DNA of 63,406 nt from a virus (taxonomy: Duplodnaviria > Caudoviricetes), in IMG/VR virus record IMGVR_UViG_3300042465_001918, positions 1 to 63,406 of that record. One strand, 5' to 3'. The notes beneath the pieces are model-generated. The model had not been told where the DNA came from, ran no database searches, and saw nothing but the letters and a program-made list of their open reading frames with translations. Positions 1-59,093 of the stretch are shown here, in pieces (the stretch's first letter is position 1; each line of letters starts with the position of its first letter). A program made the position numbers and the translations under genes.

Positions 1-184
1 TGTGCAGAGTAACCCGCAGGTCGCCCGTCATAAGCGTGGCCAATGGCCTGCACTGCTGTTTAAACATGTCAGAGTAGTTCAGCGCCTTCTCGCTTTTGAT
101 GAGACGGGACACCCCTCCAAACCGCACCAACCTCCGACTGTTGGCTTTTGACGCCGGTTCACCAAAAATAATTTGCACAAGGGC

Positions 185-213
185 TTGCAATTGTTGCGTA
201 TCATCACTATCAT
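185..213 (+). promoter_or_regulatory. Putative sigma70 promoter for the recombination operon
   Basis: TTGCAA-17 nt-TATCAT upstream of RBS GGAGA and ATG 249. Confidence 0.55.
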
Positions 214-248
214 TGAGTTTGTCAGTCATAAAAACCTTTGGAGAAAAG

Positions 249-1115
249 ATGCAAGTTACGAACGTTCACAACCTGCCAGAGCCACTTGTGACTCTAGCAC
301 GGAGAGAGTATTACAGCAAGGGGGCTGCTCAGTACAGCGTCACAGAGATCATGTCTCCCCCCAAGATCCGCAGGATGAGAGAGAAATACGATGACCAGAT
401 CGTGACGGATGTCTCCCAGATGCTGTGGTCGCTGCTGGGTTCTGCCCTGCACGTTGTCATGGAGCGCGGAGAGACTTCCGGATGGATCAAGGAGGAGCGT
501 TTGTTCGCGGAGGTGGACGGGGTATCCATCAGCGGCGCAATCGACCTCCAAGAGGAGGGGGAGAGCGGGATCACCATCTATGACTACAAGTTCACATCCG
601 CATGGGCAGTCATGCAAGAGAAAGAGGAGTGGATACAACAGCTAAACATTTACAAGTGGCTGGTCGAGACGGTCAAGCAACGCAAGGTTGTGGGTCTGAA
701 GATCTGCGCCATGGTCAGGGACTACAGCAAGCATGACCTGCGGGAGGCTTACCCAGCCGCCCCCATTTGCATTGTTGACGTGCCCCTGTGGGACAGCGTC
801 AAGACTGAGATGTACATACGGGAGCGTCTGGAGATGCACCGTGAGTCCAAGATGAGAGCGGACTTTGAAGAGGATCTTCAGAACTGCTCCAACGAGGAAC
901 GGTGGATGTCGGAAACGACATTCGCGGTTAAGAGGGAGGGCCGGAAGACTGCCATCCGTGTTTTTAAAACCATAGAAGAGGCCACCGAACTGGCTGAGAA
1001 GGAAAAAGGATATGTTGAAACAAGACTCGGAGAACCAAAGCGCTGTACTGGAGACTTCTGCGGGGTATCTCAGTGGTGCGCTCAATACCAAGGAGAGCGC
1101 AGTGCTGACGAATGA
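249..1115 (+). CDS. PD-(D/E)xK (Cas4/RecB-like) exonuclease
   Basis: ISGAIDL...IYDYK motif, QLNIY, C-terminal Cys cluster (C...RC-x3-C-x5-C); start moved to ATG 249 after GGAGA RBS. Confidence 0.75.
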   Translation: MQVTNVHNLPEPLVTLARREYYSKGAAQYSVTEIMSPPKIRRMREKYDDQIVTDVSQMLWSLLGSALHVVMERGETSGWIKEERLFAEVDGVSISGAIDLQEEGESGITIYDYKFTSAWAVMQEKEEWIQQLNIYKWLVETVKQRKVVGLKICAMVRDYSKHDLREAYPAAPICIVDVPLWDSVKTEMYIRERLEMHRESKMRADFEEDLQNCSNEERWMSETTFAVKREGRKTAIRVFKTIEEATELAEKEKGYVETRLGEPKRCTGDFCGVSQWCAQYQGERSADE

Positions 1116-1368
1116 CTTTCGTGGCGGACGCTACATGATTTTTAAAACAAGCGATGACGTATTGATGGGAGAGGTGCTTGCCATCTCCGACACCTACGTT
1201 CGCTTTCACCCTTGGTCTTTTTTGGAGGGCTGCTTGGATTTAGATCAAGAGAAGTTGCTCCAACTTGCAGACATCAAGGCGTTCCACGCCTTTAAAGATG
1301 TTGTGGATATGGACCACTACTGCGCCACACATTACTGGAACAAGGAGATTTCAAATGATACCAAATGA
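1102..1368 (+). CDS. Hypothetical protein
   Basis: GTG after AGGAGAG RBS, overlapping neighbours. Confidence 0.55.
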   Translation: MLTNDFRGGRYMIFKTSDDVLMGEVLAISDTYVRFHPWSFLEGCLDLDQEKLLQLADIKAFHAFKDVVDMDHYCATHYWNKEISNDTK

Positions 1369-2023
1369 CCTGCTGAAGATCAACGTCAACGACCACACGG
1401 AGAAAAAGAATGGTCTGACCTACCTGTCATGGGCATGGGCGTGGGCGGAGGCACTGAAGGCTGACCCCACCGCAACCTTCGAGGTCAAGACGTTCAAGTA
1501 TGACGCCTACACCGATTTGCCATTTATGGCGATGAATGGGACTGCAATGGTCTGGGTCACAGTCACAGTGTTCGGTAAGCCGATAACGTGCTTCCTTCCT
1601 GTGATGGATCACCGGAACAAGCCCATCCTGAACCCTGATTCGTTTCAGGTCAACACTGCGCTTATGCGCTGCATGGTTAAGGGTCTTGCTCTGCACGGAC
1701 TGGGTCTTTACATCTATGCGGGTGAGGACCTGCCGGATGATGGTCAGTCAGTTCAGGCAGAACCTGTGGTTGTCAAGGTTGTGACACCCACTGCCACGGC
1801 TGATCTTGAGGTCAACACTGGCAACGCAGATGCGAATGCCGAGTTGTTTGCCGAGGGAATGATGACATACACGAACCATTGCACAGACGTCAAAGGTTTA
1901 AACAGTTACTGGAAGTCGAATCAAACACAACTTGATTCACTCAAGGTAAGCCGCCCTGATCTTTACGATCAGATTCGCAACCGCTTCGCAGAAATCAAGA
2001 AGCAATTATCGGAGAGCAAGTAA
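1355..2023 (+). CDS. Sak3/DUF1071-family single-strand annealing protein
   Basis: INVNDHTEKKNGLTYLSWAWAW and RCMVKGLALHGLGLYIYAGEDLP signatures. Confidence 0.85.
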   Translation: MIPNDLLKINVNDHTEKKNGLTYLSWAWAWAEALKADPTATFEVKTFKYDAYTDLPFMAMNGTAMVWVTVTVFGKPITCFLPVMDHRNKPILNPDSFQVNTALMRCMVKGLALHGLGLYIYAGEDLPDDGQSVQAEPVVVKVVTPTATADLEVNTGNADANAELFAEGMMTYTNHCTDVKGLNSYWKSNQTQLDSLKVSRPDLYDQIRNRFAEIKKQLSESK

Positions 2024-2343
2024 TGCCATATCAACCCAAAGCACCTGAGTACAAGGCGTACCCCGACAGTGGTTCGCTACGCGCCTCGACCAGCAAGAAG
2101 GGGCCAAAATCCCCCGACTACTGGGGCAACATTGCCATCAATCTGAAGGACATGACCAACATCAAAACAGAGGATGGCCTGACTGTTGTCAAGCTCTCTG
2201 GCTGGAAGAAAGTTGGCAAGGATGGCAAGACCTATCTGTCAATTGCCGTTGACCGCTTTTTGCCAAAGCAAGAGGGCGAAACCTATAGCCGCCAACCAAT
2301 CCGCCAAGAGGATGACTTTGGCGATCAAGATATTCCATTTTAA
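2023..2343 (+). CDS. Putative single-stranded DNA-binding protein (DUF736-like)
   Basis: PDYWGNI...LSGWKK...YLSIAV; acidic DQDIPF tail; follows annealase. Confidence 0.7.
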   Translation: MPYQPKAPEYKAYPDSGSLRASTSKKGPKSPDYWGNIAINLKDMTNIKTEDGLTVVKLSGWKKVGKDGKTYLSIAVDRFLPKQEGETYSRQPIRQEDDFGDQDIPF

Positions 2344-2353
2344 GGAGAGCGAT

Positions 2354-2683
2354 ATGTCAGCTAAACAACTCATCAAAGATTACATGGCGGCGAACCCCAA
2401 AGCCAAGCCCAAAGAGATTGCACTTGCTTGCAAATGCTCTGTCCACACGGTCTATAACTTTCGGGCCTCGTTGAAAACAAAAGCCGCATCGTCCCCCCGC
2501 AGTGATGCCAAGCTTTTGGCTGAACGCGAAAGGGAGATCAAAGGCTTTGTGGACACAACAAACCTGCTTTTGCACAAAATTGAAAAGCTGATGGATGAAA
2601 ACCAACTGTACGCGAGCCGCGAAACAAAGCTGATGGGCGTCATTGATTACCTTGAGTCTAAAGTCGATGGCCTTGCAGTTTGA
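2354..2683 (+). CDS. Hypothetical protein, N-terminal HTH plus coiled coil
   Basis: PKAKPKEIALACKCSVHTVY HTH-like; RBS AAGGAG. Confidence 0.6.
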   Translation: MSAKQLIKDYMAANPKAKPKEIALACKCSVHTVYNFRASLKTKAASSPRSDAKLLAEREREIKGFVDTTNLLLHKIEKLMDENQLYASRETKLMGVIDYLESKVDGLAV

Positions 2684-3050
2684 AGCAAGAAAGGTAGCGC
2701 TCAAGCAAGACCGAACAGGTTTTGTCTTGACGCTGGCGATCCACCCTGACGAATGCCCAGAAGAGATTCTGCGTGACTTCGTTGGGGCGCGATACGGTTG
2801 TGCGCTGGTGCGGATTCAAGATGACGAGTCTGCTACCCCGTACAGCAACAGGGTTCAGAAAGCCGCAATGCTTTGCAAAGATTCCAAGTTTCAAGATTAC
2901 TTAGGCGTAGACAACGAAGACTTTGCTGCGGAGGTGTTGTGTAAACACTGCGGCATAGAAAGCCGGACCGAGTTGCACGGCAACGCTAAGGCGCAGCAAG
3001 TATTTGATGCTCTGATCGATAGATTTAACGACCAAGAAGTTCCGTTTTAA
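2667..3050 (+). CDS. Hypothetical phage protein with SSB-like acidic tail
   Basis: LCKHCGIESRTEL motif; ends DQEVPF. Confidence 0.65.
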   Translation: MALQFEARKVALKQDRTGFVLTLAIHPDECPEEILRDFVGARYGCALVRIQDDESATPYSNRVQKAAMLCKDSKFQDYLGVDNEDFAAEVLCKHCGIESRTELHGNAKAQQVFDALIDRFNDQEVPF

Positions 3051-3059
3051 GGATGCACC

Positions 3060-3377: not shown

Positions 3378-3564
3378 CCAGTGTCAAGCGTGTAAACAGT
3401 ACTTCAACAGTAATGCTGCGTTTGACAAGCATCGGGTTGGTGGGCACGGCGTTGATCGCCGTTGCAGAACCACTGATGAGATGACGGCCAAAGGCATGCT
3501 TATTAACCACGCAGGTTTTTGGGTCACCAAAGCATATGACGTAGTCAGAGAGGAGTCAGAATGA
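3355..3564 (+). CDS. FDxHR-family putative zinc-binding protein
   Basis: CQAC...AAFDKHR...RC. Confidence 0.7.
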   Translation: MNLTGNRNQCQACKQYFNSNAAFDKHRVGGHGVDRRCRTTDEMTAKGMLINHAGFWVTKAYDVVREESE

Positions 3565-7950: not shown

Positions 7951-8215
7951 GGCTTTACGCGCTGCCCCCTGCATGCACTGCGGGGTTGAGGATGGGACTG
8001 TCTGTGCCGCCCACTCCAATCAGATGAGGGATGGCAAGGGCAGAAGCCTCAAGGCCAACGACTACAGGATTGCCGCCCTATGCTTTAAATGCCATTCCGA
8101 GCTTGATCAGGGCCGGGTAATGAGCCGGGAAGATCGTTTAAACATGTGGGAGAACGCCCACCGGGCGACGGTGGGGTGGCTCTTCGACAATGATCTTATT
8201 GGGCTGAAGAGATGA
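7925..8215 (+). CDS. DUF1364/YbcO-like zinc-binding putative nuclease
   Basis: CMHC...AAHSN...GKG..LKAND...LCFKCHSELD. Confidence 0.75.
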   Translation: MYRNQKLLEALRAAPCMHCGVEDGTVCAAHSNQMRDGKGRSLKANDYRIAALCFKCHSELDQGRVMSREDRLNMWENAHRATVGWLFDNDLIGLKR

Positions 8216-11200
8216 TTGTCTTGATTCTCTGGATCTCTGCGTTGATAGCATTCTCCGCCCTGTTGATTCCAGTGATTGCGTCACGCTTCTCATCCCCCGA
8301 CATTTTGGAGATCTGAACCGCAGACTTCATCTGCCGGAGTTCCTTCATGGTCTTCTCGGTGTCGCGGATGTAGTCTTTAAACGCGAAGGTGCCTTGGTTC
8401 TTCTTGAGGTAGTCCACGTATTCTTCAGACTCGCCCTGCTTCTCAAGGAAGTTCATTGTCCTGACAACCGAGTCCACCGAGTCTTTGAGCTTGTAGTACT
8501 CCGTCACGTTGCCTCGCGCCTCTGGGTCGAGGGCGAACCTTTTGATGACGGGTAGCTGCTCAAAGCGCTTGGTCGCCCTCGGGCTGTCGCCGAACTGATC
8601 CATGACCATATCCAGCGTGTCCACGCCGTACATGCCAATCGTTCCGGTGTAGCCTTTGATGACGTGATCCACCTTCATGGGAGACAGCCCCAGCACGTCA
8701 GCGATGCCTTTGGCAAGGGACGATGTGCCCGGGCCAACCTGAAATCTAGGATCTACATCTACCATGCCCTCACTAACGATGGGGCGCAATGTAAACGTGT
8801 TGAAGTTAAACCCAGCCTCAACCAACGGTTTGATAGTTTGAGGTATCGGGTTAAACGCGAAGGTCGAGACCATGTTGCGTTTAATAGCGTCTCTCAGGTC
8901 TTGACCCGTGTCATTGCCAAAGGTGTAGGCGGCAAGCCTTTCCGGAATTGTTTTGAACAGCACACCCACCTCGAACGGGATTGGGATGCGGATGCCCAAG
9001 TACGGGATCAGCCAGTTGTTGTCCTTGGTCTCCTGCTCCTGCTTCTTGTATTCCTCATCGTCTGAGACCATGAACCAGTAGGCGGTGGACAGGGCCATCA
9101 TGGTCATGCCGCGCACAAAGAACTGACGCTGGATAGCCGCTGCGTCCTTGTTGTTCATGTTGCCTGTCGAGGCACGGTAGAACAGATCCAGACCTTGCAG
9201 ACGGGCGTTGAAGAACGGAACAGCCGCAGTCAGGACCCGGATCAATGCTGAGCTACCCTTGCGGTGGAAGTTCATTACCTCCATAGACCTGAACAGGGCC
9301 TCGGCTTCGTTGCCAGTCTCGGCCATGACCCGCTCGTATATGACAACGCGGGTGGCAGCATCTGATGCGGTTGTGCCCTTTTCCAAGGCGTCCCACAGTG
9401 ATGTAAACGGGCGCAGCAGGAGCGCATCCTTCTGGCCCGCTTTCTTGGCCAGATCCTTTTCAAGGTTTAAACCTGACTTCTCGATGTTGCCGCTGTCGTA
9501 ACCGCTGATGATGCCAGCATTGAGCAGTGCTTCAAAGGTTGGAGAGTTCCGAGTCAACGACTTGCCGAAGGACATGACCGTATCTACTACGGGTGTCATC
9601 TTCACGCCTGACGTTACATACGCAGACAGTGAGTCACGCAACAAGTTAGCCATCATGAAGCCGGGATCTTTGGTCACCAAGTTACGCAGGAGGTCCGCTG
9701 GAGCGGACAGTATCCCCATGAAGGGCAGGTCGGATAGGTTTAAACTCTTCACCGCCTCAATGAGCAGGTTGTCCGCCGTTGCATAGGATACGAGTTCACC
9801 CTTCTCTAGAACGTTGATGACGTCGGGAGCCGTAGATGGTGTTTTTAAACGGGTCACACCCATACCCGGCGCATTCACTTGAGACGCAACATTGATGGCT
9901 CGCTGACCTGCATAGTTTTTAATGCCAGCCTGAATGGCTGATTGGGTGTTGCGAACCATGGTCTCCAAGAAGTCGGCAAGAGGTGCTTCCTCTGCAATCG
10001 CACCCTTGAGCTTCTTCGGGGCCTTGACGCCGGACAGAGACTGGAACAGGTTCGGCCCCACCGTTTTCTCGCCGTCCATCTGACGGTAAAAAGGAACGTA
10101 GTCTGCGTACTTCATGTACTCAACGCCCCGTTCTTTTGACAGGACGCCCGTGTCCACCATGTACTTGACCAGCCCGTTGTTGAACGCGATCAGGTCTTTC
10201 TGAACGCTGACAAACTCTGGAAACTTGGCTTCAAGAGCTTTGGCGTAAGCCACATCGGCGGTGGTGATACCGGTTGGTTTTCCCTGCTTGTCCAAGCGCA
10301 CGCCGCGCTTAATCATGGCCCAATACTGGTAGTACTGATATACCTTTGGCTCGTTGTAACGCGCCAGAGGAGCAAGGGATGGAACCAACCCCTTGACGCT
10401 GGTATCGATGGTTGTGATCCCGTTGCGCAGGGTGGGGATGCCGCCGTTGCGGTCTCCCATGCCCATGGCTGACGCTGCGATACCAGCACCCACATCAGAG
10501 AACAGCGCGGCTGACTCTGCGCTTTGATCTGCCAGCAGCACCGCCCCGCCCATCTGCTCCGCCAGCTTCTTGTCATAGACAGACAACTGGTTGTAGCGGT
10601 TCAGGAACCTAGCCCGGAAAGACGCAGCACTCTGTGGAGTGATGGCCTCGATCATGCGCTGAGCAAAGTTCTTTCTCTCGCGTGTAAACGTGGTTTCGTT
10701 AACCCGGTCATTGAGGGCTGTTGAGAAGGTAGGCAGGCTAAAACGAATGTTCTTGGTCTCCCGGCCAAACTCGCCAAGGTTACCGGTCACTGACTTCAGT
10801 TGGGTCGGCTGATAGACCGCATATGTTTTAGCCGGGGTGCGGTCATCTTTTAGCGTGAAGGAGTCAAAGCCAAACCGGTGCAAGCCTCGCTGTACACGGG
10901 GGTCTTCTATAGCCTGTCTCACGCCAAAAGTGATACGACCCGTCAATGAGTCTAGCCATTTATCTGCGAATTCTTGCGGGTAATCGGTGTTGTGGGTAAC
11001 CCACTCCATCACCTGAGCAACGTGTTCCTTGTTCTCAAAGTCAAACGGCGTCTCTGCCCGTGCGTACAGGGGCATGATGGACATCTTGGACGGCGACAGA
11101 TCCAGCAGGGCTGCGTACACCTGATCTTCTATCTCGCCAAATTTCCCGTACACAGGAATCTTGCGCTTGGCCTGACGCATGAAGTTGGCGCTTTCGTCCT

Positions 11201-48756: not shown

Positions 48757-48785
48757 AGTGTACAGGAGACGTTTAAACCTGTCCA
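48757..48785 (-). promoter_or_regulatory. Putative terS promoter with GTTTAAAC in spacer
   Basis: TGGACA-17 nt-TACACT. Confidence 0.55.
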
Positions 48786-49944: not shown

Positions 49945-50186
49945 ACCATCAAGACCGCACCGCCTACGCTCAGGCGTTTAAACGCAAGGCCAGCGCCTAC
50001 GACATGGCGACATGCCGCCGTGCCATTGCTGACATTGACGCTACCCTGCTGATCCATGAGTGCCGCCAGACTGCCAATGAACCCAGCGACTACGTCACCC
50101 GCCTCTGGCTGGAGCGTGATGCCATGCTGGATCGTCAGTCTGACATCTGCCGCCAAATTGTTCGTGAACTTGAAAGTGAGGAATGA
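49941..50186 (+). CDS. Early hypothetical protein
   Basis: ATGA-coupled ORF. Confidence 0.55.
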   Translation: MNHQDRTAYAQAFKRKASAYDMATCRRAIADIDATLLIHECRQTANEPSDYVTRLWLERDAMLDRQSDICRQIVRELESEE

Positions 50187-50333: not shown

Positions 50334-50362
50334 AAGACTACCCCTTTTAAACATGCTACAAT
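50334..50362 (+). promoter_or_regulatory. Extended -10 promoter
   Basis: AAGACT-17 nt-TACAAT with TGn; TTTAAAC in spacer. Confidence 0.55.
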
Positions 50363-50383: not shown

Positions 50384-50962
50384 ATGACTACAACTAACCG
50401 TGAAGACTGGCTCAGCGCCGCCGTCTCTGAACTACGCCCATTTTTCGAGGCGGTGGGCAAGCCACTGCCAGCGAACGTACGTGTTACGTGCGGCTTCCCT
50501 AGCAATGCCAAGCGCTCCGGTGCTATTGGCGAATGCTGGGCTGACACTGCCAGCGCAGACAAGACCTTTGAGGTCTTGATCAGTCCCGTGCTGGATGACC
50601 CAACCAAGGTCTTCGAGGTATTGGTTCACGAACTCTGCCACGCCACTGCTGGCGCTATGAACCACGGGGTCAACTTCCAAAAGGTAGGCAACCTGATGCA
50701 CCTTGCCCCGTCCCCTACCAAGGCCGGATGGAAAGCCACGGGTAAGGCCGCAACCTTCGATTCGGTTTATGGCGAGATCATCAAGTCGCTTGATGCGTAC
50801 CCCCATGCCGCCCTGTCGATGACTACCAAAAAGACTCAGGGCACTCGCATGCTCAAGGCGGTCTGCCCGTCATGCGGGTACACCGTGCGACTCACCAGCA
50901 AGTGGGCGGCTCTTGGCCTACCGTCCTGCCCACAAGACGATGACATTCTTAACCTTGTTTAA
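50384..50962 (+). CDS. SprT-like zinc metalloprotease
   Basis: VLVHELCH..H..F; C-terminal CPSCGY...CP zinc finger. Confidence 0.8.
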   Translation: MTTTNREDWLSAAVSELRPFFEAVGKPLPANVRVTCGFPSNAKRSGAIGECWADTASADKTFEVLISPVLDDPTKVFEVLVHELCHATAGAMNHGVNFQKVGNLMHLAPSPTKAGWKATGKAATFDSVYGEIIKSLDAYPHAALSMTTKKTQGTRMLKAVCPSCGYTVRLTSKWAALGLPSCPQDDDILNLV

Positions 50963-50974
50963 ACGGAGTACTTT

Positions 50975-52483
50975 ATGACTGACGCACAAATCAAAATGGA
51001 AATTCTCGCACTGCCCATCGCGGTGGTGATGGCGGCATATGCGGTGCGTAGCACCACAGTGCTGAACGGTACAAATGCGGAAATCAAAAGCCAAGCCGCC
51101 GATTTTCTGGTGACAAAGGTGCGTGACGGGTCTATTGATCTGAACGCCATCAGGGGCACTGCCCCCGTGACTATCACCAACGGCGTGACGGCAATCATGG
51201 CTCAGAACGCGACACTGTCCACTGCACAAGCCGTTGTGCTGGACGGCATCACTCAGCGCCAGAGCAATGACCGCGCCCTGCTGGACTCTGTACGGGCAGT
51301 GGCAGATCGTGCCGCCAGTGACGCGCTGAAAGGGCTTAACAGCCACAACACTCTGACCCAGACCGTCAGCCGCGCCTTGGCGGCGCTGGAGCAGGACATT
51401 GAGGCCAACCGCCAGAACATAGACCGCCTTGCAGTCTCCACGGTTGATGACCGTAAGGTTGCGGCTGAGGTTGCTCTGGCCATCGACAAGGCGTTTGCCC
51501 CGTTTAAACAGTCTGTTATTGATGCTGGCGCGGAGCAGGTTATCGCCAACGGCGTGAGTGCCAAGGTGATTGGGTCTGAGACCGCCCTGAACGTGTTTGG
51601 CGTGGACGTGCGGGATGCCAAGGGCAACCCTCTAATGGTTGACATCTGGGATGCCGTGGACGCACCAGCCATTGACCCCAACTTCATTTGGACTGAGGGC
51701 ATCATCAAGCACCTGTTGCTGTCGCAGAACACGGGCGAAAACCTGTGGTTTGGCGGTGAAAAAGGGACTGGAAAGAGCGAGACCGCCCGTCAGTTTGCCG
51801 CCAAAACAGGCCGCGCCTACACCCGCATCAACTTCCACAAGTACACCACTTCGGAAGACTACGCTGGTTCTGTTGGCCTTGAGAATGGCAATACGGTGTT
51901 TAAACGTGGTGCTTTTCTGACCGCCTTTGCTTCGCCTTCGACTGTGATTTTGCTGGACGAGATTTCCAACTGCGATAGTGGAGAACTGGCAACGCTTAAC
52001 GGTATGCTGGAGGTGAATTCAGCCGTCAACTACGGGGGTCAGGTTCACCGCCGTGCGGCTGGTGTACTGGTGTTCGCCGCTGACAACACCTTGACGAACG
52101 GTGATCAGTCTGGACGCTACGCTGGCACTCGCCAGATGAATTCCTCGCTGGCTGATCGTTTCTCTCGCGTCATTCGCTTTGAGTACCTGTCCAAGGCTGA
52201 CGAGGTGACTGCGCTGGTGAGGCATACCCAATGCAATGAATTGCTGGCTGGGCACGTTGTGGATGCCATCAATGCCGCCCGTGCCAAGGTGGAGACCGGA
52301 GACGTTATCGATGCACCTTCGATCCGCTCTGCCATTGCCTTTATCCGCGCACTGAACGTGCTGTCTGTTGACGAGGCTTGGGCCTCAGCAGTGACCGCCC
52401 GTCAGCCTAGCGAAAGTGCCGCCGCTCTTGATTCGATCAAAGCGGCTTACCTCAACCCTGCTCAAATTGAGAAATGGATCTGA
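50975..52483 (+). CDS. MoxR/CobS/CbbQ-type AAA+ ATPase
   Basis: GEKGTGKS, ILLDE, AADNT, YAGTRQMNSSLADRF. Confidence 0.88.
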   Translation: MTDAQIKMEILALPIAVVMAAYAVRSTTVLNGTNAEIKSQAADFLVTKVRDGSIDLNAIRGTAPVTITNGVTAIMAQNATLSTAQAVVLDGITQRQSNDRALLDSVRAVADRAASDALKGLNSHNTLTQTVSRALAALEQDIEANRQNIDRLAVSTVDDRKVAAEVALAIDKAFAPFKQSVIDAGAEQVIANGVSAKVIGSETALNVFGVDVRDAKGNPLMVDIWDAVDAPAIDPNFIWTEGIIKHLLLSQNTGENLWFGGEKGTGKSETARQFAAKTGRAYTRINFHKYTTSEDYAGSVGLENGNTVFKRGAFLTAFASPSTVILLDEISNCDSGELATLNGMLEVNSAVNYGGQVHRRAAGVLVFAADNTLTNGDQSGRYAGTRQMNSSLADRFSRVIRFEYLSKADEVTALVRHTQCNELLAGHVVDAINAARAKVETGDVIDAPSIRSAIAFIRALNVLSVDEAWASAVTARQPSESAAALDSIKAAYLNPAQIEKWI

Positions 52484-53403: not shown

Positions 53404-54060
53404 ATGATCCCCGCAAAACTTCGCTACGAAATTCGCCAGATGTTTGAGAACAGCGGCACTGAGGAATTCAACATCAACCGCCGCACTGGTTCACTCAACA
53501 TCAACGCCTTGTCAAACATCGGGCACAGTGATCGCCTGTTTAAACGCCGACATGAAGTGGCTGGTGTTGACTCAGCGGTGACCATTGTGCTGGACTGCTC
53601 CGGATCGATGGAACATGATAAGCGCATGCCCAATGCCGTCAATGTCTGCTACGCCCTGCTGACTGTGCTTGCCGCCTCTGGTGTAGCTACCAGCGTAGTC
53701 ACATTCAACCATGTGGTCAGCGTTCTAAAGCCTTGGTCAATGCCAGTGCCGCGCACCAAGGCGTTGCTTGAGTGCGTCTCGCCCAGTGGCAATACGAACG
53801 ATTACGCCGCCCTATCCTACGCTCACGGCATGCTGTTACGCCGCCCAGAGGCGCGAAAGGTTTGCTTTGTCCTGACTGATGGCGAGGGCGACCCTGATGC
53901 TACCCGCGCACAGTGCCTGTCCGGTGCAAAGCTGGGCGTGACAACGATAGGGGTTGGCATTCTGGAGGGCGTGGGCCATGTGTATCCCAACGCTGTCTAC
54001 GTCAACAATGTTGAAGACCTTGGAACAGTGGCATTCAACAAACTAAAACTTGCGGCTTGA
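53404..54060 (+). CDS. von Willebrand factor A domain protein
   Basis: MIDAS DCSGSM, T, LTDG; IGVGI. Confidence 0.88.
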   Translation: MIPAKLRYEIRQMFENSGTEEFNINRRTGSLNINALSNIGHSDRLFKRRHEVAGVDSAVTIVLDCSGSMEHDKRMPNAVNVCYALLTVLAASGVATSVVTFNHVVSVLKPWSMPVPRTKALLECVSPSGNTNDYAALSYAHGMLLRRPEARKVCFVLTDGEGDPDATRAQCLSGAKLGVTTIGVGILEGVGHVYPNAVYVNNVEDLGTVAFNKLKLAA

Positions 54061-54433: not shown

Positions 54434-54621
54434 AAACAGGCGATAACATTGTGGTCATCATGGATGGCAAGATCAGAGGCGCGGAAGTTATTGCGGTGCT
54501 GGCTGATGGCAGGATAGAAACATCCCTTAAGACTTATGACGGGGATAACGCGAGAGTGGATCGTCACAAGGCGTTTACCGCATCCGAATGGGATCTGGTC
54601 AAAGGAGAGTTTTATGTTTAA
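54430..54621 (+). CDS. Hypothetical protein
   Basis: RBS AGGAG; ATGA coupling. Confidence 0.55.
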   Translation: MKTGDNIVVIMDGKIRGAEVIAVLADGRIETSLKTYDGDNARVDRHKAFTASEWDLVKGEFYV

Positions 54622-54703
54622 ACGAGAAGACCTGATCACCCGTGTTGTGTTCCTCCTTGCCATAATTGTGGTGGCACTTGATCTTTTGTACTGGAGACCA
54701 TAG
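54614..54703 (+). CDS. 29-aa single-TM peptide
   Basis: MFKREDLITRVVFLLAIIVVALDLLYWRP; RBS AGGAG. Confidence 0.55.
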   Translation: MFKREDLITRVVFLLAIIVVALDLLYWRP

Positions 54704-55472: not shown

Positions 55473-55488
55473 GTCTGTACTTGTGCGT

Positions 55489-57189
55489 TTAAACGTCAAA
55501 CGAATCTAGGTTCTCTGTGTAGTTTCCTGCGGTTTTGTTGTAGAGCAGAGTGGTCTCACCCTGCGTCCCGACCCAGCGATAGCGGCACTTCCAGACCGCG
55601 ATCTCGACAAACCGATCCTGCCTGTGGACGGTGATCCCGCAATCGGTCTTTGCCCACCATGCCATCGACCCGCTGATCGACATGCCGTCCGGTCTGGGTT
55701 GCTCGACCCCAGCGCGGTTGATCTTGCTGGGATGGGCGACAAACCATGTGTGTACATCGTGGGTCATGCAGAACTTCTTGACCTTGGTCAGGATGTCACT
55801 GATGGCGTTGGTCTCCGACTTGTCACCCGCTGGCTGATCAATGTAGTTGTACGGGTCAATCACCAGACCCCTGACCCCCATTCTCTTGACGGCGGCTTTC
55901 GCCCTTGTCAGGATCGAATCAATTGTGTTCGGCTCTTCGCCTTGGGTATCGATGAACAGGAAGTGATCCTGCACCCACTTGAACGCATCATCTGCGACCT
56001 GCTTACTCATGCGGTCACGGCCTTCGTAGAACGACTGTAAGCTGTATAACTCCATCAAGCGGGTGATATGGACTTCGGGCTGATTCTCAAAGGAACAGAT
56101 GGCAAACTTCCAATCCGATGACCTTGCGAGGTTGACCATGATTTGGTCAACAAAGTTGGACTTACCGCTGGACGGGTAACCCGTGACCACCGTGAGCTGA
56201 CCCGGGGCAATCGTGTAAACGCTATCAATTGACGGGTAACCCGTGGTGAACCCCTTGCCCGTTCCCTTTGTGTACAGGTCATTTATCTTGTCGAGGTAGG
56301 AGTTGGCCTCTGAAATGCCGTTGATGGGGTAAGGCTCGGCCTCATCGATTATCTTGTTTAAACGCTCTACTGGCGCGTCGTCGAGCGTCGGGTTGTCGTC
56401 GAGCCAAGCCTCGTTTAAATCCTTCCACGCGAACTTGGCAAGGCGGCATTTCTCTTTGCCAATCCTTCGGGACAACTCCTCCGCCAGCGCTTGACCAGCA
56501 GGGTCTTGGTCTGTGGCGAGAATCACGTAGGGGGCGGCATCGATGATCTCCCGCGCATTCCATACGAATCCAAACTTCTTGTCCTCGCTGGGCAGGACTT
56601 TGCCGTCCGCAACCTTGACGGGAGCACCGCTCGGGACGCTCACAACGTTCTTGATCCCTGCCTCTATCGCTGTCAGGCAGTCGATCTCGCCCTCGACAAT
56701 GATCAGCGGTTCACCCTTGATGATCGTATCTATCCCAAAAAAATCATGCGCTCCACCTGCGTCTTGGGTGAAATCCTTGGCTTCGATTGACCTGTACTTG
56801 GCTGAGACCAGCGCACCATCTCGGTAGTAGGGAAAGCCAACTGCCTGTGTCGGCTTGCTCAGGCGGGAGAAGAACTTCTCCGCTGAGAACAAACGCATGG
56901 TGTCTGCGGTCTTTTGTGAGATGCCCCTCGACTTCAGAAAATCGTAGTGCAGGGCGGTCAGGCGATTGTTGACGATGGTTCGGGCTGGTACGACTGACAA
57001 TTGGGTCTCCTTGGGTTGCACAGAACCCGCCGCATAGCAATGATGGCAGTGGTACACAACCGCCCCGTCATCCTTGCGGGTGAGGGTCATGTCCTTGAGG
57101 TTTTGTTTTCTGCGGGTGGGGGTGCAAAAGGGGCAGATGACCCTTGTCGAATCGTTGAAACGGGTCTCAGCGACCAGAACTTCGATCAT
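55489..57189 (-). CDS. DNA primase-helicase (T7 gp4/Twinkle-like)
   Basis: CPFC..CHHC zinc finger; Toprim EGEID and DQD; GYPSSGKS; VIDP; VAHPSK. Confidence 0.92.
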   Translation of the reverse strand: MIEVLVAETRFNDSTRVICPFCTPTRRKQNLKDMTLTRKDDGAVVYHCHHCYAAGSVQPKETQLSVVPARTIVNNRLTALHYDFLKSRGISQKTADTMRLFSAEKFFSRLSKPTQAVGFPYYRDGALVSAKYRSIEAKDFTQDAGGAHDFFGIDTIIKGEPLIIVEGEIDCLTAIEAGIKNVVSVPSGAPVKVADGKVLPSEDKKFGFVWNAREIIDAAPYVILATDQDPAGQALAEELSRRIGKEKCRLAKFAWKDLNEAWLDDNPTLDDAPVERLNKIIDEAEPYPINGISEANSYLDKINDLYTKGTGKGFTTGYPSIDSVYTIAPGQLTVVTGYPSSGKSNFVDQIMVNLARSSDWKFAICSFENQPEVHITRLMELYSLQSFYEGRDRMSKQVADDAFKWVQDHFLFIDTQGEEPNTIDSILTRAKAAVKRMGVRGLVIDPYNYIDQPAGDKSETNAISDILTKVKKFCMTHDVHTWFVAHPSKINRAGVEQPRPDGMSISGSMAWWAKTDCGITVHRQDRFVEIAVWKCRYRWVGTQGETTLLYNKTAGNYTENLDSFDV

Positions 57190-57431
57190 TTAATAGCTCC
57201 TGAAGCAGTGCGTTTAAACGACCTGTTTTCGGAGGCTGGCTTGGCTTTGAGGTTGCTTCTGACGGTAGTGCCGCCTTTACTGAGAGGGGCGATGTGGTCT
57301 ACGTCTTTGCCGTCACCCTTGTGAACCAGACCCTCCCGCTCCAACATCCGTCTGGCCTTGTTTCTCTGCGCCCTTTTCTTTTTAACAGCAGGGCTACCAT
57401 CGTAGGCTTGTTCTTTTTTGTAGTCACGCAT
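57186..57431 (-). CDS. Small HNH endonuclease-like protein
   Basis: DVDHIAPLSKGG...SNL......NRS. Confidence 0.75.
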   Translation of the reverse strand: MRDYKKEQAYDGSPAVKKKRAQRNKARRMLEREGLVHKGDGKDVDHIAPLSKGGTTVRSNLKAKPASENRSFKRTASGAIK

Positions 57432-57941: not shown

Positions 57942-58147
57942 GCTTGCTCCGGCAGTTCAAGTTCAAGCTGGTCTTCCCTGTAGTCCTCTACATCACACCC
58001 GTCTCTCACGGCATCTATCAGTGCGTCTTGGCTGGCAACCTTGACCGTGATGTTGGTTCTTACAAAATAATTCAATGCTTGGGTTTTAGTTTTAGCCCTG
58101 ATCAGACGGGTGTCTCCGTCCAATGCCTCTACGATGTAAATTCTCAT
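57938..58147 (-). CDS. Hypothetical protein
   Basis: RIYIV...RLIRA...QAL...VASQDAL common phage motif. Confidence 0.6.
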   Translation of the reverse strand: MRIYIVEALDGDTRLIRAKTKTQALNYFVRTNITVKVASQDALIDAVRDGCDVEDYREDQLELELPEQA

Positions 58148-58380
58148 GTTCTATCCTCTGTTGATGTTTGTTGATGACTTGAATTGATCTGCGTTACTTT
58201 GGTTTTGATCTCCTTGTAAATTGACATCAGGGTCGCTTCGCTGACCTTCCAATGCCTGTTGTTTGCGATGATGTCCGAAATCTCTCTGCTTGTTAACCAT
58301 AACAGAGGCTTACGCTTTCTGTACTCCAGATGTTCCCTAAGTTCATCGGCGACAGCCTTGTAATATTCTTTAGTGTCCAT
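58144..58380 (-). CDS. Hypothetical protein
   Basis: ATG after GGGAGG RBS. Confidence 0.55.
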   Translation of the reverse strand: MDTKEYYKAVADELREHLEYRKRKPLLWLTSREISDIIANNRHWKVSEATLMSIYKEIKTKVTQINSSHQQTSTEDRT

Positions 58381-58669
58381 GTACCTCCCGTATAGCCCCT
58401 CGCGGGGCTTTCTGATAATTTTCACCCAAAGACCCCCCTTCCCCGCAACGCAGGAAAGAGAGGGAAGGTGCTTCACCGCTCAGTGAGCATCATCATGCTA
58501 CGGATTGGATACCGTAAGCCCCTCGGCTTGATGATTCGACCAGCCGTGCGGGTTTCTGGGGGTAGTTGCCCCGTAGTCTTGCGACACACCGCATAACCCT
58601 TTTCTTCCGCGCCGTCAGGATGAACGCTTGCTATCGTGCGGAGTACGGCTGGGTGTGGAAGTACAGACG

Positions 58670-58796
58670 AAAAAAAAGCCGTTAGTGAAACCCCGGTGGA
58701 AGAACACCTCAGCTTTGTGGGCTGAAGCGCTACCCCATTCGGGGTCGGGATTTCACTAACGACTCTTTTATCAAACTCGGTTTCCACACCTAGCTG
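58670..58796 (-). ncRNA. Candidate C4/CI-like structured antisense or attenuator RNA
   Basis: 18-bp stem with G-U pairs enclosing two hairpins, then a U run; promoter directly upstream. Confidence 0.5.
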
Positions 58797-58801
58797 ACGC
58801 A

Positions 58802-58854
58802 ACTCTAGCATGTTTTCGGCGACTGTGCAAACTTTCTTGTAGGGACTTACCCTA
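58802..58854 (-). promoter_or_regulatory. Promoter plus 15-bp operator
   Basis: TAGGGTAAGTCCCTA, then TTGCAC-17 nt-TAGAGT (TGn). Confidence 0.6.
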
Positions 58855-58856
58855 AC

Positions 58857-58916
58857 AGACAGAAGAGACAGAAGAGACAGAAGAGACAGAAGAGACAGAA
58901 GAAATTGCTTCTGTCT
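58857..58916. repeat. 9-bp iteron-like array: AGACAGAAG x5 plus one inverted copy
   Basis: Perfect tandem 58857-58901; CTTCTGTCT at 58908-58916. Confidence 0.9.
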
Positions 58917-59093
58917 GAGGTAAGCGTTTAAACGCAACCTTTCGTCAGTTTCGTCAGTACCCAACCCCGGCGTTAACCCCGGCCCATTTGCTATGTTTAA
59001 ACGCACGTCAGCTTCGTCAGTTCCCCGGTCGCGGGCGGCGTGCCTGCTTTTCGTTTAAACTGGCATGGCTCGGTGTGACACCGCGCAGTTGTT

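What the first reader, a model, noticed from the sequence alone, without database searches (positions are those of the whole stretch)
58..59060. Highly iterated palindrome GTTTAAAC (~37 copies) across the phage genome
Seen: by-eye count of 37 exact copies in the 59.3-kb unit, starting at 58, 1896, 8136, 9465, 9738, 11468, 12266, 12606, 14339, 15135, 15245, 19799, 21056, 23662, 23947, 25021, 25217, 33089, 33262, 34136, 40157, 47854, 48726, 48771, 48963, 49976, 50957, 51502, 51898, 53538, 54616, 55487, 56356, 57212, 58926, 58995 and 59053, plus many one-mismatch copies. At roughly 52% GC, under 1 copy is expected. It occurs in all three frames (F-K-x, x-L-N, V-stop) and in intergenic DNA, so selection is on the DNA rather than the protein. 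I saw none in the capsid, portal, terL, main tail-fibre or basic-array genes; it is dense in control regions, early genes and the giant ejection gene. Known: phages usually avoid palindromes; the nearest analogue is cyanobacterial HIP1 (GCGATCGC). Inference: a genome-wide binding, modification or recombination mark read by a phage or host protein.
Basis: partly seen in the sequence, partly recalled or inferred. Interest (0 to 1): 0.88.

Follow-up and report, generated by a model that had tools for sequence, protein, structure and literature searches.

The report
Phage-wide DNA word tied to SprT-like protein
The phage genome really is peppered with the 8-base word GTTTAAAC, and the same word (or its one-letter variant GTTTACAC) marks unrelated phages of many hosts whenever they carry one particular small zinc-ribbon protein, which is therefore the likely reader of the word.

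Summary
There are 37 exact GTTTAAAC per 59,308-bp unit and 39 in the window, against about 0.9 in dinucleotide shuffles and about 9 in codon shuffles. About 33 of 43 protein-compatible positions carry it.

It is not a host-type "HIP".
- Palindromy is not essential. The selected word is GTTTAMAC: the asymmetric variant GTTTACAC/GTGTAAAC occurs 13 times against 1.3 expected, and the double variant GTGTACAC is absent.
- The word follows one phage gene, the SprT-like zincin/Zn-ribbon protein at 50384-50962. All 184 IMG/VR loci with a homolog hold 2,150 words in 2,050 kb, against 56 reversed controls.
- Cultured phages of E. coli, Enterobacter, Burkholderia, Pseudomonas, Acinetobacter and Dinoroseobacter carry GTTTAAAC. 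Actinophages carry GTTTACAC, 16-39 copies each.
- Homologs without the C-terminal QxTR...Zn-ribbon signature, and phages without the gene, have none or one.
- E. coli K-12 itself is not enriched.
- The window's Dam methylase is not conserved in relatives.

Most likely these are docking sites for that protein. What the docking achieves is inferred, not shown. I found no description of this pairing in print.

The parts
50384..50962 (+). SprT-like zincin + C-terminal Zn-ribbon protein (P0001, 192 aa; HELCH 82-86; Q152-x-T154-R155, C161xxC164, R169, C182). Candidate reader of the word. Its TAA stop lies inside the GTTTAAAC at 50957.
   Evidence: Pfam SprT-like E 8e-4 (below the gathering cut-off) and phrog_6361 E 1e-39. 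AF2 pLDDT 93.9. Best fold match is abylysin 4jiu, E 9e-3. It is the only family shared by motif-rich phages of different lineages.
50344..50351 (.). Near-cognate TTTTAAAC, 33 nt upstream of the SprT-like gene's ATG
58..65 (.). GTTTAAAC, intergenic (repeated at 59366)
   Evidence: conserved in 4 of 4 aligned relatives
1896..1903 (.). GTTTAAAC in Sak SSAP gene (repeated at 61204)
8136..8143 (.). GTTTAAAC in HNH gene 7925-8215
9465..9472 (.). GTTTAAAC in giant 2918-aa gene
9738..9745 (.). GTTTAAAC in giant gene
11468..11475 (.). GTTTAAAC in giant gene
12266..12273 (.). GTTTAAAC in giant gene
12606..12613 (.). GTTTAAAC in giant gene
14339..14346 (.). GTTTAAAC in giant gene
15135..15142 (.). GTTTAAAC in giant gene
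15245..15252 (.). GTTTAAAC in giant gene
19799..19806 (.). GTTTAAAC in ORF 19671-20075
21056..21063 (.). GTTTAAAC in ORF 20072-21097
23662..23669 (.). GTTTAAAC in ORF 23545-24135
23947..23954 (.). GTTTAAAC in ORF 23545-24135
25021..25028 (.). GTTTAAAC in ORF 24629-25237
25217..25224 (.). GTTTAAAC in ORF 24629-25237
33089..33096 (.). GTTTAAAC in ORF 32945-33331
33262..33269 (.). GTTTAAAC in ORF 32945-33331
34136..34143 (.). GTTTAAAC in ORF 33332-34264
40157..40164 (.). GTTTAAAC, intergenic, 45 nt downstream of the capsid gene
   Evidence: kept in 15 of 26 aligned relatives
47854..47861 (.). GTTTAAAC abutting the ATG of the LexA-like HTH gene
   Evidence: kept in 17 of 31 relatives, GTGTAAAC in 5
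48726..48733 (.). GTTTAAAC beside the DnaA-box region
   Evidence: kept in 16 of 20 relatives
48771..48778 (.). GTTTAAAC beside the DnaA-box region
48963..48970 (.). GTTTAAAC beside the DnaA-box region
   Evidence: GTTTACAC in 7 relatives
49976..49983 (.). GTTTAAAC, intergenic by my gene calls
50957..50964 (.). GTTTAAAC supplying the stop codon of the SprT-like gene, just before the MoxR gene's RBS
   Evidence: kept in 11 of 18 relatives
51502..51509 (.). GTTTAAAC in MoxR AAA+ gene
51898..51905 (.). GTTTAAAC in MoxR gene; 11 relatives have the synonymous GTTCAAGC here
53538..53545 (.). GTTTAAAC in VWA gene 53404-54060
54616..54623 (.). GTTTAAAC supplying the stop of ORF 54430-54621
55487..55494 (.). 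GTTTAAAC at the 3' end of the primase-helicase gene
56356..56363 (.). GTTTAAAC in primase-helicase gene
   Evidence: kept in 10 of 17 relatives
57212..57219 (.). GTTTAAAC in the small HNH-like gene, centre of a 38-nt imperfect palindrome
   Evidence: kept in 7 of 10 relatives
58926..58933 (.). GTTTAAAC followed by a CGTCAG-repeat
58995..59002 (.). GTTTAAAC followed by a CGTCAG-repeat
59053..59060 (.). GTTTAAAC
59366..59373 (.). GTTTAAAC, second copy of site 58 in the repeated end
61204..61211 (.). GTTTAAAC, second copy of site 1896 in the repeated end
22392..22399 (+). variant word GTTTACAC
40653..40660 (+). variant GTTTACAC in the capsid gene
46358..46365 (+). variant GTTTACAC in terL
46901..46908 (+). 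variant GTTTACAC in terL
48067..48074 (+). variant GTTTACAC in the TerS-like gene
2939..2946 (-). variant (GTGTAAAC on + strand); repeated at 62247
3390..3397 (-). variant (GTGTAAAC on +), intergenic; repeated at 62698
10682..10689 (-). variant (GTGTAAAC on +) in the giant gene
22921..22928 (-). variant (GTGTAAAC on +)
24892..24899 (-). variant (GTGTAAAC on +)
29580..29587 (-). variant (GTGTAAAC on +) in the 960-aa fibre ORF
47797..47804 (-). variant (GTGTAAAC on +) in the LexA-like HTH gene
56213..56220 (-). variant (GTGTAAAC on +) in the primase-helicase gene

Best explanation
GTTTAAAC is the self-complementary form of an 8-base word, GTTTAMAC (M = A or C). The word is kept at high copy number by selection on the DNA in phages that encode one particular small protein: a SprT/Spartan-like zincin domain fused to a C-terminal zinc ribbon carrying the signature Q-x-T-R...C..C...R...C (here the ORF at 50384-50962).

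Shown here:
- the enrichment;
- its independence from coding frame, from strand and from host taxon;
- its tight co-occurrence with that protein, and specifically with the protein's zinc-ribbon signature.

Inferred:
- the zinc-ribbon domain binds the word on double-stranded DNA, probably as a monomer and in either orientation (a palindromic copy offers both);
- the 50 words per genome (37 + 13) are therefore docking sites that spread the protein along the phage chromosome.

More speculative: the purpose of the docking. It could be genome-wide control of transcription or lysogeny, in the manner of 'stoperator' sites. Where the HExxH site is intact, it could also bring a DNA-activated protease to proteins sitting on phage DNA.
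For: 1. Enrichment and DNA-level selection.
- 37 copies against 0.87 in dinucleotide shuffles and against 9.3 in codon shuffles, max 14.
- 33 of 43 protein-compatible positions are occupied, although TTA is only 114 of 1457 Leu codons. Compatible positions are themselves 2-3 times more frequent than in the motif-free relative DSL-LC04.
- Aligned sites are kept in 108 of 231 site-relative pairs against 45 expected. New sites arise through paired synonymous changes, e.g. GTTCAAGC to GTTTAAAC at 51898.
- The 3.5-7.9 kb block of clade-variable genes has none.

2. The word is asymmetric.
- GTTTACAC/GTGTAAAC occurs 13 times against 1.3 expected, max 5 in 200 simulations.
- It occurs 10-26 times in seven clade genomes, while GTGTACAC is 0 in six of those seven and 3 in one.

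3. Lineage-wide.
- GTTTAAAC is listed first among palindromic 8-mers in 62 of 80 TerL-relative loci.
- Five whole relatives carry 30, 23, 49, 39 and 21 copies against 0-2 reversed controls.

4. Gene-motif link across unrelated phages.
- In a blind triple-motif scan of IMG/VR, 14 of 80 loci encode a homolog, and these include 8 of the 10 non-clade loci with dispersed copies.
- When loci were selected by distant homologs (33-48% identity), GTTTAAAC was listed first in 58 of 61.
- All 184 homolog-bearing loci together hold 2,150 words in 2,050 kb, against 56 reversed controls.
- It is the only family shared by 10 of 13 motif-rich genomes in an all-against-all BLASTP.

5. Cultured phages of different host phyla.
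- GTTTAAAC: R5C 6 of 6 TTTAAA and Pan1 8 of 8; ep3 4 and Mica 7 of 8; Persinger 4 and Alexa 8; Arya 7.
- GTTTACAC in actinophages: Tweety19 27, UNTPL 39, GardenState 16, with reversed controls 0.

6. Double dissociation.
- Homologs lacking the QxTR/Zn-ribbon signature go with 0-1 words: CN1, Dismas, Armstrong.
- Six IMG/VR loci whose homolog lost HExxH still have 18.5 words per 10 kb.
- Phages without the gene have none: BaileyBlu, Donkey and DSL-LC04 have 0; 023Pt has 3 at 37% GC.

7. The neighbouring sigma-like gene of actinophages is excluded. UNTPL has the word without it (tally), and BaileyBlu and Donkey have it without the word.

8. In 5 of 5 cultured proteobacterial phages examined (ep3, Arya, Mica, Persinger, Alexa), a copy lies 10-35 nt upstream of the gene's start, after a terminator and a -10-like box.

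9. A preprint reports that Arthrobacter phage Liebe, with a truncated homolog, makes clear plaques, while its near-twin Maureen makes turbid ones (passages read).
Against: - No binding has been shown. Everything rests on co-occurrence, and homolog-bearing phages could share another, undetected short gene or a common cis signal.
- The 'own-promoter' site is not general. Only 11 of 123 distinct IMG/VR upstream regions have an exact word within 160 nt of the gene, fewer than the roughly 21 expected from locus-wide density. The window itself has only a near-cognate TTTTAAAC there.
- A subclade with a 55-58%-identical homolog (G006, G007) uses ATTTAAAC/GTTTAAAT and avoids GTTTAAAC, while homologs at 30-40% identity keep GTTTAAAC. 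I found no residue that tracks A against C at position 6.
- Family assignment is weak by sequence: Pfam SprT-like is below its cut-off, Spartan in the PDB scores E 0.22, and no Foldseek hit reaches E <= 0.001.
- Only 17 cultured phages were tested, out of 164 records with a homolog.
Confidence: 0.55

Rival explanations
1. The word is a cis signal read by conserved host machinery or by another, undetected phage factor (a promoter, operator, terminator or RNA-processing element at cistron boundaries). The SprT-like gene merely travels with the same early-gene module.
For: - Noncoding or edge positions hold 8 of 37 copies although only about 6% of the DNA is noncoding.
- In L290, L293 and L298 the copies form tandem arrays in the divergent control region. 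They then sit at nearly every junction of small co-directional early genes. Some are at the apex of hairpins with differing stems, and some supply the TAA stop.
- In GardenState, about 10 of 16 copies are intergenic, several of them 24 nt before a start codon.
- Repeated intergenic motifs of unknown function are described in Microbacterium phages (passages read).
Against: - Most copies in the window clade are inside genes, in both open frames and at near saturation.
- The asymmetric variant occurs in both orientations in genomes transcribed almost wholly rightwards: GardenState 6 forward and 10 reverse, Tweety19 19 and 8. This argues against an RNA signal or an oriented promoter.
- Hairpin flanks are rare: 0% in the window clade and 3-6% elsewhere.
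- The hosts span Actinobacteria and three classes of Proteobacteria.
- No other gene family is shared, and the sigma-like neighbour is excluded.
Confidence: 0.2
2. The copies accumulate through a mutational or repair drive (biased gene conversion or very-short-patch-like repair towards the word), possibly set off by the same protein. Individual copies then need have no function.
For: - Protein-compatible positions are near saturation and sites turn over quickly.
- The clade-variable block, probably recently acquired, lacks copies.
- The phage carries its own recombination set: a PD-(D/E)XK exonuclease, a Sak SSAP, RusA and two HNH proteins.
- A model of this kind was proposed for HIP1 (Elhai 2015, PMC4390886; abstract in the search listing).
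Against: - Some sites are held at the same position across 70%-identical relatives well above background.
- Amino-acid sequences appear to be bent to create compatible positions.
- Cultured phages keep only 4-8 copies, preferentially at gene boundaries.
- No repair enzyme co-occurs with the word across lineages.
Confidence: 0.12
3. The word is the target of a restriction-modification or other DNA-modification system, for example the phage's Dam-family methylase or a host enzyme of TTTAAA/GTTTAAAC specificity.
For: - The window encodes a Dam-family methylase (PF05869, E 5e-27).
- HIP1 is tied to cognate methylases (abstracts in the search listing).
- The total avoidance of GTTTAAAC in G007, next to abundant ATTTAAAC, looks like pressure from a host enzyme that cuts GTTTAAAC. 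That PmeI cuts this site is recalled, not from a call.
Against: - The methylase has no homolog in any of 9 clade relatives that keep the motif.
- No methylase family is shared across motif-rich lineages.
- Being a modification target explains tolerance of a site, not a 40-fold enrichment.
- The asymmetric variant and the absence of GTGTACAC do not fit a palindromic enzyme site.
Confidence: 0.07
4. It is a host-derived iterated sequence carried over into the phage: a HIP1-like palindrome, a DNA-uptake sequence, or a Chi-like recombination hotspot of the host.
For: - The copy density (0.6-0.8 per kb) resembles HIP1, DUS or USS densities (recalled).
- Lambdoid phages rich in host Chi are reported (PMC12315714, search listing only).
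- The phage has linear ends with a long terminal repeat.
Against: - The same word occurs in phages of E. coli, Enterobacter, Burkholderia, Pseudomonas, Acinetobacter and Dinoroseobacter, and as a variant in phages of Arthrobacter, Microbacterium and Streptomyces.
- E. coli K-12 has 87 copies against 98 reversed controls.
- A triple-motif scan of 185,579 species genomes returned single isolated clusters scattered over unrelated taxa. In the 80 loci examined there were 0.275 dispersed copies per locus.
- The asymmetric variant shows no end-directed polarity in Tweety19 or UNTPL.
- The TerL relatives DSL-LC04 and 023Pt lack it.
Confidence: 0.03

Closest known systems
Stoperators of Cluster A mycobacteriophages (L5/Bxb1-type immunity repressor sites)
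   Same: A short asymmetric word is present in tens of copies across a whole phage genome. It is read by one phage-encoded protein acting as a monomer, also away from promoters. Source: abstract of PMC9283540 in the search listing. Copy numbers of 23-36 are recalled.
   Different: - Stoperators are 13-bp sites, lie mainly in short intergenic gaps, and are oriented with transcription (recalled).
- Here the word is 8 bases, is found in both orientations, and in this clade lies mostly inside genes.
- The candidate reader is a zincin/Zn-ribbon protein, not an HTH repressor.
- The word is shared by phages of different bacterial phyla, including lytic ones.
HIP1 (GCGATCGC) of cyanobacteria
   Same: An octamer that is 15- to 300-fold over-represented, occurs in all frames, and is maintained by selection (abstract of PMC5861425 in the search listing).
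   Different: - HIP1 is a feature of the cellular chromosome and is tied to cognate methylases.
- Here the host is not enriched, no methylase co-occurs, and palindromy is dispensable.
Repeated intergenic motifs and start-associated sequences of actinobacteriophages (Clusters K, EC, EF, EG, EI)
   Same: Cluster-specific short motifs repeated 5-19 times, 14-30 bp upstream of start codons, of unknown function (passages of PMC7302621 read). The GTTTACAC copies of GardenState and Tweety19 sit in similar places.
   Different: - Those motifs are 13-30 bp long, confined to one cluster, oriented, and intergenic.
- GTTTAMAC is shared across phyla, extends into coding DNA, and has a candidate trans-factor.
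- I could not see the supplementary motif figures.
SprT/Spartan DNA-dependent metalloproteases, and ArdC-type antirestriction proteins
   Same: An HExxH zincin domain joined to a small zinc-containing nucleic-acid-binding domain. The AZ-cluster preprint reaches the same fold assignment (4JIU, Spartan) for Lizalica gp46 (passages read; my). CN1's homolog is annotated 'antirestriction protein'.
   Different: - Spartan binds DNA without sequence preference (recalled).
- A sequence-specific word partner is not described for any member.
- Some phage members have lost HExxH yet keep the word.
Chi-rich lambdoid phages
   Same: A phage genome loaded with an 8-base word that modulates a DNA-processing machine (PMC12315714, search listing only).
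   Different: Chi is the host's word, is oriented, and is host-specific. None of these holds here.

Membership tests
HIP1-like highly iterated palindrome | The octamer is hyper-abundant in the cellular (host) chromosome | tested here: not met
   E. coli K-12, host of ep3-type phages, has 87 copies against 98 reversed controls. No taxon recurred among at least 120 triple-motif hits in species genomes, and the 80 loci examined had no dispersed copies. The window's own host is unknown.
HIP1-like highly iterated palindrome | The palindromic sequence itself is the selected unit | tested here: not met
   GTTTACAC is enriched 10-fold here and is the only form in actinophages. GTGTACAC is absent.
HIP1-like highly iterated palindrome | Cognate DNA methyltransferase(s) co-occur | tested here: not met
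   The Dam-family gene at 4110-4529 is absent from 9 of 9 clade relatives. No methylase family is shared across lineages.
HIP1-like highly iterated palindrome | Over-representation of tens- to hundreds-fold, in all frames | tested here: met
   About 40-fold against shuffles. Both open frames, the stop frame and noncoding DNA are used.
Stoperator-type genome-wide repressor sites | Tens of copies of one short asymmetric word spread over the phage genome | tested here: met
   50 GTTTAMAC per unit; 16-39 in actinophages.
Stoperator-type genome-wide repressor sites | Sites are oriented with the direction of transcription and lie in intergenic gaps | tested here: not met
   Both orientations occur in rightward-transcribed genomes. 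29 of 37 copies are inside genes here.
Stoperator-type genome-wide repressor sites | Bound by the phage's immunity repressor, halting transcription | not testable with these tools
   Only indirect: the plaque difference between Liebe and Maureen in the preprint.
SprT/Spartan-like zincin (the protein at 50384-50962) | HExxH metal site in a minimal zincin fold | tested here: met
   HELCH at 82-86. Pfam SprT-like E 8e-4, but 19.6 bits is below the 25.6-bit cut-off. Foldseek best hit is abylysin 4jiu, E 9e-3. Spartan 6mdx scores E 0.22.
SprT/Spartan-like zincin (the protein at 50384-50962) | C-terminal zinc-binding nucleic-acid-binding domain | tested here: met
   C161xxC164...C182 with invariant Q152, T154, R155 and R169 in 35 aligned members. 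The region is confidently modelled as a beta-hairpin ribbon.
SprT/Spartan-like zincin (the protein at 50384-50962) | DNA-dependent proteolysis | not testable with these tools
   HExxH is lost in L079, L081, L181 and L176, so proteolysis is not needed for keeping the word.
Chi-like recombination hotspot | Host-specific word with polarity towards DNA ends or replication | tested here: not met
   The same word occurs across host phyla. Forward and reverse GTTTACAC are interspersed along Tweety19 and UNTPL.
DNA uptake sequence (DUS/USS) | Enriched about 1 per kb in the genome of a competent host | tested here: not met
   as for the HIP1 host test above.
-1 frameshift slippery site (U_UUA_AAC) | Heptamer in the X_XXY_YYZ frame of an ORF, with a downstream stimulator | tested here: not met
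   17 copies are in that frame, but 12 are in the F-K frame and 8 are noncoding or at gene edges. Downstream structures were not examined.

The most novel reading that the evidence does not exclude
A Spartan-like protease has been turned by phages into a sequence-addressed chromosome guardian. Its zinc ribbon reads GTTTAMAC, and the phage sows its genome with tens of these words. The protein, and where HExxH is intact its DNA-activated protease, is thereby stationed every 1-2 kb. From there it could silence or pace transcription and cut host proteins that bind or track along phage DNA, such as restriction or defence enzymes and xenogeneic silencers. The same 8-base address would then have been conserved from actinophages to proteobacterial and freshwater phages.
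Probability: 0.25. Interest if true: 0.9.

Novelty: new variant of a known kind. Interest (0 to 1): 0.78.

Why it matters
If the pairing holds, it gives a function to a very common 'SprT-like protease' gene of phages. That gene has 164 cultured records and 710 database proteins, and so far its role has only been guessed. The pairing would also reveal a DNA address conserved across phages of different bacterial phyla, which is unusual for any phage cis-element.

It is directly testable in laboratory systems: E. coli phage ep3, Enterobacter phage Arya, and the SEA-PHAGES Arthrobacter and Microbacterium phages.

For genome scanning, it shows that a striking 'palindrome' can be the self-complementary face of an asymmetric word. 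It also shows that the informative control is co-occurrence with a gene across lineages rather than composition alone.

Practically, the word and the gene together could serve as a marker for this early-gene module in viromes.

Tried and rejected
- Maximal-order Markov expectation (33.6). Rejected as a null, because the 7-mers consist of the motif.
- Sense-strand orientation of ATTTAAAC in the G006/G007 subclade. A first impression of co-orientation with genes did not hold.
- Hairpin or RNA stem-loop reading. It is striking in L290 and L293 but rare overall.
- Dam methylase, LexA-like HTH, RHH and wHTH as readers. They are not conserved with the motif.
- The sigma-like neighbour gene in actinophages. 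Excluded by double dissociation.
- Autoregulatory site as a general rule. Not met in IMG/VR loci, 11 of 123.
- Residues that would explain A against C at word position 6. None found.
- Megablast of 20 kb against cultured phages gave no match.
- No tRNA genes.
- Profile search of the PDB gave only E 0.22 to Spartan. NCBIfam gave nothing useful.
- Literature. Searches for GTTTAAAC, GTTTACAC and GTGTAAAC with phage terms, for R5C, and for SprT-like with phage terms found no description of the word or of the pairing. The library lacks most subscription journals, and supplements were closed. The motif figures of PMC7302621 and the 'repeat sequences (data not shown)' of the AZ preprint could bear on priority.
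- I did not run complex prediction, read laying, the look-up of sequencing runs, the search of protein representatives or the protein-atlas search.
- Gene calls are my own longest-ORF heuristics, not a gene finder. Counts by frame or region shift by a few between the two sets (31 against 33 occupied positions).

Full report
**What the window is.** The window is a complete IMG/VR virus record. Its first 4,098 bases recur at the end with 3 mismatches, so the unit is 59,308 bp. It is a podovirus-like phage with these genes:
- TerL (46136-47626), portal, and a 2,918-aa polyvalent virion protein;
- a primase-helicase and a MoxR/VWA pair;
- a PD-(D/E)XK exonuclease, a Sak annealing protein, RusA and two small HNH proteins;
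- a Dam-family methylase.

It has no tRNA genes. The nearest cultured relatives reach only 50-59% TerL identity: phage 023Pt_psg01, DSL-LC04 and pelagiphages HTVC027P/023P. IMG/VR holds 597 TerL relatives.

**Checking the observation.** With the two copies in the repeated end there are 39 in the window and 37 per unit.
- Dinucleotide shuffles give 0.87, maximum 3.
- It is the commonest 8-mer of the genome, and 37 of the 59 TTTAAA hexamers carry G..C. The hexamer count is therefore a consequence of the octamer, not its cause.
- When synonymous codons are shuffled, within genes or genome-wide, the count falls to 9.3 or 7.9 (maxima 14 and 12 in 200 shuffles each). About 8 of those are noncoding copies that the shuffle cannot move.
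- Inside genes the word uses both frames that are open to it: 17 x-L-N and 12 F-K. Two copies provide a TAA stop.

**Strength of the pressure.** With an automatic gene set, 43 positions in the proteome could encode the word by synonymous choice, and 33 of them do. This holds even though the L-N frame needs TTA, which is only 114 of 1,457 leucine codons.

The motif-free relative DSL-LC04 has 15 such positions in 50 kb and none is used, so the protein sequences themselves seem to have been bent.

By region, compatible positions run at 0.9-1.4 per kb and about 90% occupancy in the giant-gene block and the replication/early blocks. In the conserved capsid-to-tail core they run at 0.37 per kb, with 4 of 8 occupied. 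The clade-variable 2-8 kb block has essentially none.

In relatives that are about 70-74% identical in DNA, aligned sites are kept in 108 of 231 cases against 45 expected for random octamers. Others turn over. At 51898, eleven relatives read the synonymous GTTCAAGC.

**The lineage.**
- GTTTAAAC is listed first among all 256 palindromic octamers in 62 of 80 TerL-relative loci, over 45-57% GC.
- Five whole relatives have 30, 23, 49, 39 and 21 copies against 0-2 for the reversed word.
- One subclade (G006, G007 and similar loci) is TTTAAA-rich but uses ATTTAAAC/GTTTAAAT and ATTTAAAT. G007 has no GTTTAAAC at all among 40 TTTAAA.
- DSL-LC04 and 023Pt show no enrichment.

**The turning point.** I scanned IMG/VR for three copies within short gaps, which gave 94 stretches and 80 loci. 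This returned many unrelated contigs.

Those in which the word was also dispersed shared just one protein with the window: the 192-aa ORF at 50384-50962. It was found in 14 of the 80 loci by HMM, including 8 of the 10 non-clade loci with dispersed copies, and in none of the loci with only a local cluster.

I then reversed the ascertainment and fetched loci by two distant homologs (33-48% identical to the window's protein, with otherwise almost no shared genes). GTTTAAAC was listed first among palindromic octamers in 58 of 61, at 36-59% GC.

Over all 184 homolog-bearing loci in hand there are 2,150 GTTTAMAC words in 2,050 kb, against 56 reversed controls. An all-against-all BLASTP of 13 motif-rich genomes or loci found this family in 10 and TerL in 5, with no other family in more than 3.

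**The protein.** It has an HExxH motif (HELCH) and a C-terminal CxxC...C ribbon. In 35 aligned members the invariant positions are mostly C-terminal: H141, Q152, T154, R155, C161, R169 and C182.
- Pfam gives a sub-threshold SprT-like hit, and PHROGs gives phrog_6361 of unknown function.
- A confident AF2 model (pLDDT 93.9) resembles minimal zincins. The best match is abylysin 4jiu at E 9e-3, and no match reaches E 0.001.
- A preprint on Cluster AZ Arthrobacter phages describes the homolog Lizalica gp46 in the same terms. It notes that Liebe, whose copy is N-terminally truncated, makes clear plaques, whereas its near-identical twin Maureen makes turbid ones (passages read).

**Cultured phages.** 164 GenBank phage records encode a homolog. 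I tested 17 cultured phages in all, with and without the gene.

GTTTAAAC in phages of Proteobacteria, plus Pan1, which is recorded on Pseudanabaena:
- R5C: 6 of 6 TTTAAA in 28.7 kb. Pan1: 8 of 8 in 35.5 kb.
- ep3: 4. Mica: 7 of 8.
- Persinger: 4. Alexa: 8.
- Arya: 7.

Actinophages have no GTTTAAAC at all. Upstream of their SprT-like genes I saw GTTTACAC or GTGTAAAC, and that one-letter variant turned out to be massively enriched: Tweety19 27, UNTPL 39 and GardenState 16, with reversed controls of 0.

The same variant is the commonest near-copy in the window (13 against 1.3 expected). It is also the usual replacement at aligned sites in relatives, and it occurs 10-26 times in seven clade genomes.

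The double variant GTGTACAC is 0 almost everywhere. The unit is therefore the asymmetric word GTTTAMAC, and GTTTAAAC is simply the version that reads the same on both strands.

**Dissociations.**
- Homologs that keep the zincin part but lack the QxTR/cysteine ribbon go with 0-1 words: Bordetella phage CN1, and Microbacterium phages Dismas and Armstrong.
- Six IMG/VR loci whose homolog has lost HExxH are even richer in words, at 18.5 per 10 kb.
- Phages without the gene have none: BaileyBlu, Donkey and DSL-LC04 have 0, and 023Pt has 3 at 37% GC.
- The sigma-like gene that neighbours the SprT-like gene in actinophages is not the partner. Streptomyces phages have the word but do not appear among that gene's 99 records, while BaileyBlu and Donkey have the sigma-like gene without the word.

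**Not a host feature.** E. coli K-12 has 87 copies against 98 for the reversed word. The triple-motif scan of one genome per prokaryote species gave at least 120 hits, each from a different, unrelated organism. In the 80 loci examined there were no dispersed copies and no SprT-like gene.

**How it probably works.** The asymmetric variant occurs in both orientations in genomes transcribed almost entirely rightwards, which points to recognition on duplex DNA rather than RNA.

In five cultured proteobacterial phages, one copy sits 10-35 nt before the gene's start, just after a terminator and a -10-like box. This suggests autoregulation there.

In three other IMG/VR lineages (L290, L293, L176), tandem arrays of 3-6 copies lie in an intergenic stretch, which in L290 and L293 is the divergent control region just upstream of the gene. 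In L290, L293 and L298, further copies mark the junctions of small early genes.

Neither feature is general. Only 11 of 123 distinct IMG/VR upstream regions carry an exact word, below the density expectation, and the window has only TTTTAAAC there. Hairpin flanks are rare.

I therefore commit to the following. The zinc ribbon binds GTTTAMAC, and the many copies are docking sites that distribute the protein along the chromosome. The outcome is regulatory, and where HExxH is intact possibly proteolytic. The binding and the outcome are inferred, not shown.

**Comparison and novelty.** The nearest described system is the stoperator network of Cluster A mycobacteriophages. There a monomeric repressor reads an asymmetric site at numerous positions across the genome (abstract in the listing).

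HIP1 resembles it only in statistics.

My searches found no paper that mentions this word in phages or links it to SprT-like proteins. Supplements and most subscription journals were out of reach.

Noticed in passing
window 48850-48925: Cluster of four perfect DnaA boxes (TTATCCACA/TGTGGATAA: two forward, two reverse, forming a 16-nt inverted repeat pair). It lies in the divergent region between the TerS-like gene and the rightward early genes, and is flanked by GTTTAAAC at 48726, 48771 and 48963. It looks like a DnaA-dependent phage origin.
   Followed up: no
window 1-4098 and 59309-63406: 4,098-bp terminal duplication with 3 mismatches. Several relatives' records are 62.0-63.9 kb, and one is flagged as having direct terminal repeats. 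So this may be a real long terminal repeat, or an assembly that wraps round a population.
   Followed up: partly
window 58854-58902: Tandem 9-bp repeat (AGAAGAGAC-like, 4-5 copies), followed by two GTTTAAACGCA...CGTCAG(T/C)TTCGTCAGT units 63-69 bp apart. This is iteron-like, next to RusA and the exonuclease/SSAP operon.
   Followed up: no
G007 (L109-L110) and G006 (L106-L108); loci L057-L061, L067-L071, L084: A subclade uses ATTTAAAC/GTTTAAAT and ATTTAAAT instead. G007 has 0 GTTTAAAC among 40 TTTAAA. This could be a shifted reader specificity, or avoidance of a host enzyme that cuts GTTTAAAC.
   Followed up: partly
window 3561-7950: A block of small genes with no homolog, or homologs in only 1-3, among 9 clade relatives, including the Dam-family methylase (4110-4529). 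It carries no GTTTAAAC and no protein-compatible position, as if recently acquired and not yet 'ameliorated'.
   Followed up: partly
window 8196-16952 (-): Giant 2,918-aa virion protein with ART-PolyVal (ADP-ribosyltransferase) and LPD38 domains. It carries 8 exact copies and 1 variant copy of the word.
   Followed up: no
window 50975-54060: A MoxR-type AAA+ ATPase, a 306-aa protein and a VWA/CobT-like protein lie directly downstream of the SprT-like gene. All are conserved in the clade. The trio is not shared with the other motif-rich lineages.
   Followed up: partly
L290 9186, 9992, 10516; L293 10863, 11228, 11828: In two other phage lineages the word sits at the apex of 10-14-bp hairpin stems whose sequences differ from site to site, at junctions of early genes. 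This is a lineage-specific elaboration (terminator- or REP-like).
   Followed up: partly
PMC7302621 (Cluster EC Microbacterium phages): The published 18-bp intergenic repeat TAGaCTCTaGGTgTaAgC ends in a near-copy of GTGTAAAC, and Tweety19 has TAGACT immediately before GTTTACAC upstream of its SprT-like gene. The two may be related elements. Whether Cluster EC phages carry the gene was not checked.
   Followed up: no
L351 (R5C) and L352 (Pan1): Both word-bearing Nanhaivirus phages also carry a full 7-deazaguanine (QueC/D/E/F plus a DpdA-like transglycosylase) DNA-modification cluster. The G of the word could be a modification target there.
   Followed up: no
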